Assembly: GCA_951406725.2 (NCBI GenBank)
Contig: OX597834.1
Span: forward strand, 42,780,001 to 42,844,000
DNA from: Octopus vulgaris
Taxonomy: Eukaryota
Direction: 5' to 3'
DNA: 64,000 bases
Shown piece by piece: positions 11,262 through 45,755 of the stretch (its first letter is position 1; the number at the start of each line of letters is the position of its first letter). The position numbers and the translations under genes were made by a program. A model generated the notes under the pieces. That model saw only the letters and a list, made by a program, of their open reading frames with translations, had not been told where the DNA came from and ran no database searches.

Positions 11262-11460
11262 AAATGGAAAGTTTACGAAACAAAACAAAAGACGAAGGCA
11301 GGTGGAGTACAAACAAACAAATGTATTAGTATAGCGCTCAGAATAGAAAAAGTCTTTTACGTTTCGAGCCTACGCTCTTCGACAGAAAGATACACAGAAA
11401 AGAAACAAGGAGAGAAAAAAATGCGTGTAGTAGCTAACGATCTGTCATGGCGTTTTGACT
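11262..11460 (-). mobile_element. Probable PLE terminal remnant with variant HHR, flanked by (TA)n on both sides
   Basis: Minus 11390-11353 reads UCUUU-CUGUCGA-A-GAGC(guag)GCUC-GAAA-CG-UA-AAAGA; homologous copy on the plus strand at about 45560-45755. Confidence 0.55.
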
Positions 11461-11506
11461 TATATATATATATATATATATATATATATATATATATATA
11501 TATATA

Positions 11507-11670
11507 TTCTGGTCGACCAGAAACAAAGGTGGATAATGACGAACTGGAAGCCAATGTCGAGTCAGATTCATCTGAAAGTGGCCGTGAATCATCGTTGTTG
11601 TTTGGTGTTAGGAAGCAAACACTATTGACTCACCTAATTCAAGTCGGCAAATGGAAAAATTTGTTCTCAC
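11507..11670 (+). pseudogene. mariner transposase fragment (second HTH region)
   Basis: SGRPETKVDNDELEANVESDSSESGRESSLLFGVRKQTLLTHLIQVGK resembles mariner GRP.TKVDNDELKA.VE.D.SQ..RELA..F.VS..TIL.HL.QIGK. Confidence 0.75.
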
Positions 11671-11804
11671 AGGACAGTGAGAACAAAACAGTAAAAACAA
11701 ATGGTGAGGGCTGTAAGCCAAGACGATGTGAAGTGGTGAACGCAGGAAAAACGAGCTTTGAGAAGAGACAGATAAAATCGTGTCTTATCTTTAGGAAAGA
11801 AGTG

Positions 11805-11955
11805 ACTGGCACTCCACCACTTACGACGACGAGCGTTCCACTCGATCCAATGAACGTGAAATAAAGTGTCTTGCTCAAGGTCTCAATGCGTCGCCTGGAA
11901 TTGAACTCGCTATCCAGCGATCGCGAGACGAATACCCTGACTACTAAACCACGTG
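11805..11955 (-). mobile_element. Internally deleted or chimeric tRNA-SINE (D-like head, C-type tail)
   Basis: Plus strand tggcactcc...ttacgacgacgag (C tail) is joined to gtgaaataaagtgtcttgctcaagg...gaattgaactc (head). Confidence 0.6.
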
Positions 11956-42849: not shown

Positions 42850-43165
42850 CCCTCTACCTACCTACCTACCTACCTACCTACCTAGCATCTATCTATCGAT
42901 CTATCTATCTATCTATCTATCTATCTATCTATCTATCTATCTATCTATCTATCTATCTATCTATTTATCTATCTATCTATCTATCTATCTATCTATCTAT
43001 CTATCTATCTATCTATCTATCTATCTATCTATCTATCTATCTATCTACTATCTATCTATCTATCTATCGATCTATCTATCTATCTATCTATCTATCTATC
43101 TATCTATCTATCTATCTATCTATCTATCTATCTATTTATCTATCTATCTATTTATCTATCTATAT
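42850..43165. repeat. (CCTA)n/(TCTA)n microsatellite
   Basis: Direct inspection. Confidence 0.97.
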
Positions 43166-43250
43166 AACCACATAAATTCTACAAGAAATGCGAACAAACC
43201 TGAGTGAAATCAATAATGATGATAATAATACTAATAAATATAATAATAAT

Positions 43251-44125
43251 GTCGTGTGGTTTAAAATCAGAGTAAGAAATGTCTATCCGAGCAGCGAATT
43301 ATCAATGTCTGACTACAAGAATCTGCCTGGCCAAAATCTTAAAGAACTACTGTAGCCCAACATGTCGTTTGTGTAAACAAGAAAATGAAACCATCGATCA
43401 TATTGTCTCCATGTACAACCTTCTTGCACCCACGGACTATCTCAACAGACATAATATACACAGTATATTCACTGCAAAGACTTGGATCTGCCCCATGATT
43501 TTAATTGGTGAGAATACAACACCTCCGGTGCTTGAAAATGATCACATGCGTGAAAGAATGTCAAAAGTTGGCAAAGGAAGAATATACGAAATGGAGGCAC
43601 GACCAGGTGGTAAAAACTTTGCACAGGAAATTTTGCCAGAAGCGAGGATTTGAAGCTGGAAATACATGGTAAAAATCATCGAGTCAAAGGAAACCTGGAG
43701 TCGGAGAAATGTAGGATTTTGTGGGACTTTCCTATTCAAAGAGACAAGAAGTTAGCAAATAATAAACAGTTATAGATAAGGAAAAGGAAAGTTGGTTACT
43801 GATTGATCCATTGTGCCCATTTTATTCCAGGATCGTAGACAAAGTGGGCGACAAACAAAGAATATACAATCCCTTAAAATTTGAAATAGGAAGAATTTGG
43901 ATTATAGGAACTGAAAAAGTCATGTCTAAAATAATTGAAGCTTTGGGAACAGGAAGCAAAGATATAGAGAAATGGCTGAAGAAGATTTGAATAGAATTCC
44001 TTGTAGAGCTTCAATAAAATGTTTGTCCCTTAGGGACAAAAGCTCGCGGACACCTAAGGTTACAGGTAGTAACCGGCTACCCTTATAAATATGCTAGGAA
44101 TAAGACCAAACCTGAGTTAAACCAA
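43251..44125 (+). mobile_element. R4/Dong-like RLE non-LTR retrotransposon 3' fossil (two fused fragments) beside (AAT)n
   Basis: GLKSE...PTCRLCKQENETIDHIVS...YLNRHN (zinc knuckle); then ECQKLAKEEYTKWRHDQV, ESEKCRILWDFPIQ.DK, IDKEKESWLLIDPLCPF, ALGTGSKDIEKWLKKI (restriction-like endonuclease); AAT repeats on both sides. Confidence 0.88.
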
Positions 44126-45559
44126 ATAATAATTTATTAACTAATGTGATCATGAAAGACATTAGCCTAAATATAAAGTATTAATGTGACCTTTAAAACG
44201 AAACAGCTTTGTAGACAATGTAACACTGCTTCATTTGAAACCACCTGTAAGAATATGTCAGCATAATGAATGGTATGTGTAAAACATTCTTGAACTAGCT
44301 GCTGTCTTTTGCAGGCTGTTGTTTTATATACACAGAAAACGGTTTTATTTAAGTTATCCTTATTTACTGATCGATTTAGAAGTCTCCCGCTTTTGACGTC
44401 TGGGATATGTTTAGTAATTATAGGTTCGTGGTGTGGTTCGATTTTACCGCATTTTATTTCTTCATTTAGCATATGTTATGGACAATGTTTAGCTATGCTC
44501 TCGGCTTGTGTAATGTCTTCGAAATTTAATGCTTCATCGATAGATGGTCTCGCAAATTTACTGTTTTATCAATAGTTTTAGATTAAAGAGTCTGAACATG
44601 CAAATTAGCACTTTCTTCAAGTTTTTCATTGCTTGTCTTTTTATAATATGGTATAAAATAAGTCCACAGACTGCCTCCACAGACTTGTATTGGTCGTTAA
44701 TATTCCATTTCAATGCATATAGGACAATAATATATATATATATATATATATATTTTTTTTTTTTCTATATGGTATGATTTAATTAAATCATTGCTGAATT
44801 GCTACATGGTGGTTCTTCTCTAATTTATATACATATATTATATATATTGTGAAATGTGGTTTAGTATTATTAAATTGAATTTTTCCCTGTAAGTTTGGAA
44901 TCATATTCCCTATTATTATTATTATTATTAATCATTATTATTATTATTAGTATTAGTATTATTATTATTATATATGTTTCCAAATTATGATTGGTAAGAA
45001 TATAGAATCAAAGTGGGCACCGTAGTCGCATGTGTCGGTTATCAAAGCTTAGTATCAAGTTACCTTAAGTATGTTAACCTGACCCTAAGCATTAATACTA
45101 CCACTAACCATTTAAGGATGATCTCTCTCTGAAGAATACTAAAATTCCTTGGGCAGCTAGTTTTCTTGTTTTCCACTAATAGAGTTGAAAATGTTTCAAC
45201 TAGGCTATTCTTGGAACAATGAAAAACAACCACGTATATTTCGGCTGCACATGTATTTAATTTAGATCCTATAAGAACAATGTGGTTGTTTCCAACTTGA
45301 AGAATTGGTAAGCAACAATAAGTGCACATAAAGATACAAATTTTGCTATGTACGTTAGTTGATTGCCGCAGAAACATGTGTAGGTGCAGAAACGAAAAGA
45401 AGTAATCAACTGTTGAATAAAACTGGATATAAATCTCTATTCTCCTATATTATAAATTCATTATGCATACGCACCTGCACCTTAATTTGAAATCACCAAC
45501 ACTTTATTACTTCCCTTTCTTTCAAACTCTTCTTTCAAATATTTTTTTCTATTCATTCG

Positions 45560-45755
45560 CCTTGCTTGACCGCTAAATCTACAAGTTTTTTTTGTTTCAT
45601 TCTGTCTCTGTTTATTTTCTCTTATTCCTTTCAGCTGAAAAAGCGTAGGCTAGAAACGTAAAAGAATTTTTTCCTTTTCCCGAGCGTCAAACTATTACAC
45701 CTGCTTGTTGTTCATACACCTATCTTCGCATTTTGCCTGTCTGTAAATTTCATAT
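45560..45755 (+). mobile_element. Second, more decayed copy of the 11262-11460 element ending in (TA)n
   Basis: agcgtaggctagaaacgtaaaaga...gagcg...tacacct.tcttcg.attttg...gtaaattt then TA run. Confidence 0.65.

What the first reader, a model, noticed from the sequence alone, without database searches (positions are those of the whole stretch)
11262..45755. Dense set of short hammerhead-bearing elements whose 3' tails dock into (TA)n microsatellites
Seen: about nine type-I HHR-like motifs in 35 kb (11353-, 12490-, 13371-, 17414-, 22050-, 24484+, 38907+, 39430+, 45628+), mostly with unrelated flanks. Most are followed by a 35-200 nt tail ending in (TA)n. Established: Penelope-like elements carry minimal type-I HHRs with a palindromic stem III in their terminal repeats, and PLE coding debris is present here (55076+, 55750-56520-). 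Inference: several PLE-derived or non-autonomous ribozyme-retroelement families use (TA)n as target or primer. This could couple them to the extreme microsatellite load of this genome.
Basis: partly seen in the sequence, partly recalled or inferred. Interest (0 to 1): 0.85.

Follow-up and report, generated by a model that had tools for sequence, protein, structure and literature searches.

The report
Penelope retroelement ends targeting TA microsatellites
The short hammerhead-bearing pieces are 3' end fragments of several repeat families, four of them tied here to Penelope-like jumping genes, and most sit in TA repeats; one very young family joins its target exactly at its only internal (AT)4 run, which likely means its RNA pairs with the cut DNA to prime copying, as telomerase does.

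Summary
Observation largely confirmed; interpretation mostly right and mostly already known. All nine sites are copies of dispersed repeat families whose 3' ends carry a minimal type-I hammerhead. Only about five are near-intact in the window, one is half a motif, and Rfam calls none. Four families were tied to Penelope-like (PLE) ORFs: three Neptune/Nematis-type and one Poseidon-type. The 17414 family is amplifying now (121 RT copies at 99-100% identity). In it, 28 of 33 insertions have (TA)n on both flanks, so (TA)n is the target, not a tail. The main junction lies on the only (AT)4 of the 4,349-nt unit, 56 nt past the ribozyme cut, and 15 of 15 inverted pairs have one short and one tailed arm. 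Pairing-assisted priming is likely (about 0.55-0.6); in vitro Poseidon data showed no such homology. The 39430 family does not use (TA)n. Its autonomous element carries a tRNA-like A/B-box module that marks a hard 5' boundary for short copies. These ends touch about 5% of (TA)n arrays, so they exploit the microsatellite load rather than cause it.

The parts
11263..11460 (-). Family A 3' end fragment. Minimal type-I hammerhead at 11353-11390 (A6U core, extra base after A9, 5-bp stem I, 4-bp stem II, 4-nt palindromic III); cut about 96 nt before the 3' junction. (TA)n on both sides (11237-11262, 11461-11507).
   Evidence: hammerhead span counted by hand
12403..12659 (-). Old family D copy (73% to its 5-copy consensus). 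Hammerhead at 12491-12532 with a canonical 5' core and a decayed 3' strand; (TA)n follows in this copy only.
13173..13437 (-). Family E 3' end (Neptune/Nematis-type ORF in one inverted arm elsewhere). Only the 3' half of a hammerhead whose family form has a ~110-nt stem II; ends in (TA)n at 13124-13172.
17364..17571 (-). Family B: 5'-truncated end of a currently amplifying Neptune/Nematis-type PLE, 99.5% identical to a full-length copy. U3-A8 hammerhead at 17417-17454, cut 56 nt before the junction with (TA)n at 17340-17363.
22014..22260 (-). Family H 3' end (young, 95-99%). Hammerhead at 22050-22134 with a 56-nt stem II region, cut 38 nt before the junction with (TA)n at 21929-22013. A second partial match lies at 22276-22356.
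24336..24656 (+). Old family C copy (71-87%) with tail. Hammerhead core at 24487 (one core change against the family form), cut after 24516; (TA)n at 24657-24698.
25097..25156 (-).
38740..39105 (.). Family G inverted pair (Neptune/Nematis-type PLE): short arm 38740-38854 (-) and tailed arm 38852-39105 (+), both outer ends in (TA)n. U3-A8 hammerhead at 38907-38945 with a 7-bp stem I and a 2-bp stem II.
39411..39591 (+). Family F: 5'-truncated end of a Penelope/Poseidon-type PLE. Hammerhead at 39431-39474; no (TA)n at the 3' end. This copy lacks the tRNA-like head that longer copies carry.
45600..45752 (+). Older relative of family A (~74%); decayed hammerhead at 45628-45664, followed by (TA)n.

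Best explanation
The nine motifs are minimal hammerheads in the 3' end pieces (pseudo-LTRs) of about eight repeat families, four of them shown to be Penelope-like retrotransposons and the rest likely so; the Neptune/Nematis-type families insert into pre-existing (TA)n, likely by nicking both strands of the self-complementary array and letting each nicked end pair with a short internal AU run of the RNA to prime reverse transcription.

Shown: family membership; RT plus C-terminal GIY-YIG ORFs for B, G, E and F; (TA)n on both flanks; junctions on internal TA runs; one short and one tailed arm per inverted pair; copies that run through an uncut hammerhead.

Inferred: (1) The Cys-linker endonuclease picks (TA)n. 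(2) Priming is assisted by base pairing at two sites about 38 nt apart, which gives the short and the tailed arm. (3) The many 200-230-nt copies are run-off cDNAs primed in the upstream pseudo-LTR of a tandem transcript and ending at the RNA's 5' end. (4) The hammerhead works only as a dimer, on tandem or circular RNA, and does not set either genomic end.

Family F is a Poseidon-type exception with AT-rich, non-microsatellite targets and a tRNA-like internal promoter candidate. Confidence: PLE ends about 0.95, (TA)n as target about 0.9, pairing-assisted priming about 0.55-0.6.
For: Family B full-length unit: ORF1, a -1 frame overlap, then RT (Pfam RVT_1 E 3.3e-8) and GIY-YIG (E 0.0047, below cut-off) with a C-x4-C-x2-C linker and CCHH residues. 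121 RT copies at 99-100% identity, 119 without a stop in the match.

Target on both flanks in 28 of 33 readable insertions, one flank in 4, none in 1. The only (AT)4 in 4,349 nt is at the main junction. 15 of 15 complete inverted pairs have one short and one tailed arm. The tail end also falls on a 4-nt alternating AT run of the element. Tailed copies of G and H likewise show an internal TA run at the short junction.

G has a PLE ORF beside it in 14 of 19 loci, E in 1 of 19; both have the Cys linker.

Unbiased 1-Mb sample: TA directly after the 3' end in 7 of 8 A copies, 10 of 10 A3, 4 of 8 H (the other 4 are tailed arms), 3 of 5 I and 2 of 2 H2, against 4.6% of random positions.

5' ends: 19 of 50 B arms start within one 36-nt window, six times the density of the preceding 80 nt. 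0 of 55 unselected copies start at the ribozyme cut. The B hammerhead folds as the stem I/II/intermolecular-III dimer.
Against: No ORF was found beside A (0 of 29 loci), H (0 of 19) or D (0 of 4), and only a weak one beside C, so their PLE status rests on structure.

The only in vitro PLE system initiates at sites not homologous to the cut DNA (PMC11167929). An internal TA run at the junction could instead be an endonuclease site or the relic of an old target.

G's tail-end continuation was not recovered, so a match at its second site is untested. The B start pile-up lies just above the 197-nt length demanded by the query, which inflates it.

The A hammerhead has A6U and its lowest-energy dimer is not the hammerhead fold; G's 2-bp stem II is not formed in the prediction. 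Cleavage is untested. D (0 of 4 other copies) and F (0 of 8) do not dock in (TA)n. With the strict descriptor alone, TA was as often upstream as downstream (4 and 4 of 8 within 200 nt).
Confidence: 0.78

Rival explanations
1. Same elements, but no primer-template pairing. Initiation sites are set by RNA structure, as in the Anolis Poseidon element. The internal TA run at the junction is either a site that the TA-preferring endonuclease cuts while resolving the intermediate, or a remnant of the target captured when the tandem master copy formed.
For: [quoted passage not shown] PMC8557442 ascribes the tail to endonuclease-mediated resolution. Genomic junctions inside a shared TA run cannot show which strand supplied the bases.
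Against: Both B junctions coincide with alternating AT runs, and the main one is unique in 4,349 nt. G and H repeat the pattern at their short junctions, while F, which lacks (TA)n targets, has no such run at its junctions.
Confidence: 0.33
2. The short pieces are self-standing non-autonomous hammerhead elements (retrozyme- or SINE-like). They are transcribed from solo copies, read into the flanking (UA)n, and are mobilised in trans by PLE proteins.
For: Family A3 has a shared 5' boundary: of 17 copies shown, none continues as family sequence beyond about 35 nt upstream of the library start. A, H and D were not linked to ORFs. F has a hard 5' boundary at its tRNA-like head and a four-unit tandem of ~250-nt hammerhead repeats (L338).
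Against: B, G, E and F ends continue into RT-endonuclease ORFs. A copies show a ladder of 5' truncations up to ~750 nt. Short B copies are 99-100% identical to the autonomous element and form no separate lineage.
Confidence: 0.25
3. The (TA)n next to these elements is a tail made during reverse transcription by telomerase-like reiterative copying of the AU run, so the elements build the genome's microsatellites.
For: The two flanks of B insertions sum to a mean of 53 nt (median 45), above the 33-nt length-biased mean of pure arrays. That leaves room for net addition at insertion.
Against: (TA)n also lies at the 5' junction of truncated single copies (28 of 33 with both flanks). The families touch only 37 of 719 arrays, against 134 for three SINE types; the largest array-flank clusters are SINEs. 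Young pure arrays, target duplication or a steep preference for long arrays would give the same excess.
Confidence: 0.12
4. The motifs are chance look-alikes in AT-rich, microsatellite-dense DNA.
For: Rfam finds none. The window-only descriptor count is within shuffle range. The window has 2.5 times the genome's (TA)n density.
Against: Every site is a multi-copy family with a stem-preserving motif at a fixed distance from its 3' end. The strict descriptor gives 8 against 0 in shuffles. Docking is 78% against 8.8%.
Confidence: 0.02

Closest known systems
Minimal hammerheads in the pseudo-LTRs of metazoan PLEs (Cervera & De la Pena 2014, PMC4209133; parts 1-2 of 4 read)
   Same: Type-I motif, short stem I, extra base between positions 9 and 10.1, palindromic III, U3-A8 core variant, mostly solo copies from truncated PLEs, pairs on opposite strands 100-700 bp apart, thousands per genome.
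   Different: Here there are also 54-57-nt and ~110-nt stem II regions (H, H2, I, E), a 2-bp stem II (G) and a family-wide A6U core (A). The extrapolated load is about 22,000 strict motifs (8 per Mb) against 4,000-9,000 in that paper's richest genomes, by different descriptors.
Neptune/Nematis EN+ PLEs with CX2-5CxxC linker and (TA)n bias (Craig et al. 2021, PMC8557442, passages read; Arkhipova 2006 only as cited there)
   Same: C-terminal GIY-YIG with CCHH, Cys linker, optional frameshifted ORF1, partial tandems, inverted 5'-truncated partner, 30-40-nt tail on one end, (TA)n targets.
   Different: The passages read attribute targeting to the linker and the tail to the endonuclease. They do not mention an internal TA run at the junctions, nor the strict one-short/one-tailed pairing counted here.
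Poseidon PAc of Anolis carolinensis in vitro (Frangieh et al. 2024, PMC11167929; parts 1-2 of 4 read)
   Same: Both strands cut and extended, two internal initiation sites that bound the tail, need for RNA downstream of the start sites, hammerhead dispensable for insertion. Family F shares the clade-type layout, with the ORF start overlapping the hammerhead.
   Different: PAc starts at sites not homologous to the target and uses plain AT-rich DNA; families B, G and H join at TA runs that match a (TA)n target.
Schistosome Sm-alpha/Sj-alpha SINE-like hammerhead repeats and animal non-LTR retrozymes (review PMC6765202, passages; PMC7229834, passages; bioRxiv 10.64898/2026.07.22.740005, part 1 of 5 and passages)
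   Same: Short hammerhead-bearing non-coding units; a Pol III-type promoter upstream of a hammerhead (Sm-alpha); a proposed PLE origin. Family F has a four-unit tandem.
   Different: In F the tRNA-like module sits inside the 3' region of an ORF-bearing PLE, and most copies are dispersed singles or inverted pairs with PLE tails, not tandem arrays.

Membership tests
EN+ Penelope-like element (families B, G, E, F) | RT followed by a C-terminal GIY-YIG endonuclease with CCHH residues | tested here: met
   B: (RT above cut-off, GIY-YIG E 0.0047 below cut-off, motif residues read directly). G and E: (E degenerate). F: (one internally deleted copy).
EN+ Penelope-like element (families A, C, D, H) | RT-endonuclease ORF upstream of the terminal repeat | tested here: inconclusive
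   No ORF within 1.5-4 kb flanks of A, D or H; weak inverted-arm hit for C. All copies in hand are 5'-truncated, so absence is uninformative.
EN+ Penelope-like element | Pseudo-LTRs in partial tandems, inverted 5'-truncated partner, optional 30-40-nt tail on one end | tested here: met
   B. G, H and F. C and E show inverted partners. Not seen for A or D.
Neptune clade | CX2-5CxxC linker between RT and endonuclease (shared with Nematis) | tested here: met
   B, G and E; absent in F.
Neptune clade | RT phylogeny grouping with reference Neptune rather than Nematis elements | not testable with these tools
   No named reference sequences were available; none of the 120 listed homologues (of 525) carries a clade name.
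Penelope/Poseidon clade (family F) | No Cys linker; pseudo-LTR overlaps the ORF start | tested here: met
   phylogeny not tested
Minimal type-I hammerhead | Conserved core (C3-G8 or U3-A8), stems I and II, palindromic III | tested here: met
   Family forms. A has A6U; H lacks the usual G10.1-C11.1 pair; Rfam models do not score them.
Minimal type-I hammerhead | Self-cleavage (as a dimer) | not testable with these tools
   Only folding: B adopts the dimer fold, A and G do not fully.
Non-LTR retrozyme | Tandem units of 150-400 nt, each with a hammerhead, no ORF | tested here: not met
   None of the nine window copies is tandem. One F locus elsewhere (L338) fits.
tRNA-derived SINE (short family-F copies) | tRNA-related head with A and B boxes defining the 5' end | tested here: inconclusive
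   A/B-box likeness is by eye against a recalled consensus. ARAGORN 0 in 8 loci, Rfam 0. Hard 5' boundary 13 nt before the A box in 38 of 38.
tRNA-derived SINE (short family-F copies) | Pol III transcription | not testable with these tools
   No run of four T in 1,814 nt of the F sense strand, but P=0.14 by dinucleotide and 0.02 by mononucleotide shuffle.
Naiad clade | N-terminal endonuclease and no canonical hammerhead | tested here: not met
   Endonuclease is C-terminal and hammerheads are present.

The most novel reading that the evidence does not exclude
Two new things sit in this window's families. (1) An active endonuclease-bearing PLE that primes the way telomerase does: it nicks both strands of a palindromic (TA)n array and anneals each end to a short AU template patch beside its hammerhead, giving inverted pairs with one short and one tailed arm, and possibly lengthening the array. 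(2) An autonomous Poseidon-type PLE that carries a tRNA-like Pol III promoter at the head of its pseudo-LTR and so spawns its own hammerhead-bearing SINE and retrozyme-like tandems, tens of thousands of copies by extrapolation. That would be a direct link between PLEs, Sm-alpha-type SINEs and retrozymes.
Probability: 0.45. Interest if true: 0.72.

Novelty: new variant of a known kind. Interest (0 to 1): 0.48.

Why it matters
How the telomerase-related PLE reverse transcriptase primes is still open: the one in vitro system showed no homology between start site and cut DNA. Family B offers over a hundred near-identical, mostly open RT copies, a fully defined target and two base-exact junctions, so primer-template pairing can be tested with a handful of RNA and target variants. 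A positive result would extend telomerase-style annealing from endonuclease-less to endonuclease-bearing PLEs and would give a microsatellite-targeted insertion enzyme. Family F would show how a tRNA-headed hammerhead SINE can arise from inside an autonomous PLE. For genome annotation, roughly 200,000 such end fragments (77 per Mb, extrapolated) are invisible to Rfam's gathering thresholds.

Tried and rejected
Rfam: no hammerhead call; the low-threshold hits shown are microsatellite matches to miRNA and snoRNA models.

Window-only descriptor against shuffles: not significant. Significance came from families and the 1-Mb sample.

Ribozyme cut as the element's 5' end: rejected. 0 of 55 unselected and 3 of 199 targeted copies start within 2 nt of it; the three are family F.

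(TA)n as a pure 3' tail: rejected for B. PLEs as the main source of (TA)n: rejected.

F first looked like a chimeric SINE or an independent SINE landing in (AAT)n. This was rejected because 6 of 6 heads in the random sample lead into F and 8 of 8 loci picked by the autonomous 3' region continue into the head. Absence of Pol III terminators in F: inconclusive.

Window 55750-56520 as PLE debris: not supported. A Pfam check failed on stop codons. By eye it resembles a LINE RNase H (recalled, untested).

Family I could not be tied to an ORF: the ORF beside it in L220 is G-type. No strong structure was predicted behind B's slippery site.

Expression: no RNA holder listed. Contigs of four runs cover the pseudo-LTR and two show the tail-end/(AT)n junction, but they say nothing on strand, ends or level.

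Junction tallies for C and E rest on the rows visible only; some searches were cut in output.

Papers not held: Lunse 2017, Arkhipova 2017, Gladyshev 2007. Arkhipova 2006 was not read. No supplements were opened; Craig's file S1 and the repeat library of PMC13282606 may already list these families.
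Full report
Setting. The window is G000:C21:42780001-42844000 in a 2.80-Gb assembly of 227 contigs, about 30 of them chromosome-sized. I infer an octopus-like host from size, microsatellite load and recalled SINE types; this was not verified. The window has 2,937 (TA)5+ arrays per Mb, against 1,170 in a systematic sample of 100 stretches of 10 kb (loci L182-L281).

Noticed in passing
L337:5440-5457, L353-L360, L126, L136, L238, L269, L293: An autonomous Poseidon-type PLE (family of window 39430) carries a tRNA-like A/B-box module plus (AAT)n just upstream of its hammerhead; short copies have a hard 5' boundary 13 nt before the A box. 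Candidate built-in SINE.
   Followed up: partly
L338:1600-2600: Four tandem ~250-nt units of family F, each with a hammerhead and the first ~70 nt of the ORF: a retrozyme-like array derived from a known autonomous partner.
   Followed up: partly
L221, L252, L203, L152, L096, L351 (family A3): A relative of family A with a canonical core, 12 copies per Mb, nearly all in (TA)n on both sides and sharing one 5' boundary (~210 nt long); the best candidate for a truly non-autonomous short element.
   Followed up: partly
window 13372-13437, 22050-22134, 25097-25156; L009, L105, L220: Four families (E, H, H2, I) have 54-110-nt hairpin-rich insertions in stem II, long enough to escape standard minimal-hammerhead descriptors.
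   Followed up: partly
L084:4148-4208 (-): ORF1 and the RT frame of family B overlap in the -1 frame at a T-rich slippery-type site; no strong downstream hairpin was predicted. ORF1 has no Pfam match.
   Followed up: partly
L138, L132, L291: Other elements end in the (AAT)n tract of family F copies; one looks like the 3' end of a Dong/R4-type LINE (recalled motif, untested).
   Followed up: no
window 55750-56520 (-): Decayed coding sequence that does not match a PLE profile; by eye it resembles a LINE RNase H region (recalled, untested).
   Followed up: partly
window 453-871 and 29976-30494: Two arrays of the same ~184-bp tandem unit (2.3 and 2.9 copies), and a 229-bp tandem at 37054-37517, built from SINE-like sequence.
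   Followed up: no
window 11061-11203, 15262-15640, 17064-17285: Copies of three very abundant SINE types (90, 46 and 153 BLAST hits per Mb) whose ends are the commonest neighbours of (TA)n and (CA)n arrays.
   Followed up: partly
L056, L059, L156, L228, L215: Three further hammerhead-bearing families (X7-X9) with longer palindromic stem III and inverted partners; their 3' ends and targets were not determined.
   Followed up: no
L288: The three family-F arms that start within 2 nt of the predicted ribozyme cut appear to be those of this one locus, the only hint of a cleaved RNA serving as template.
   Followed up: no
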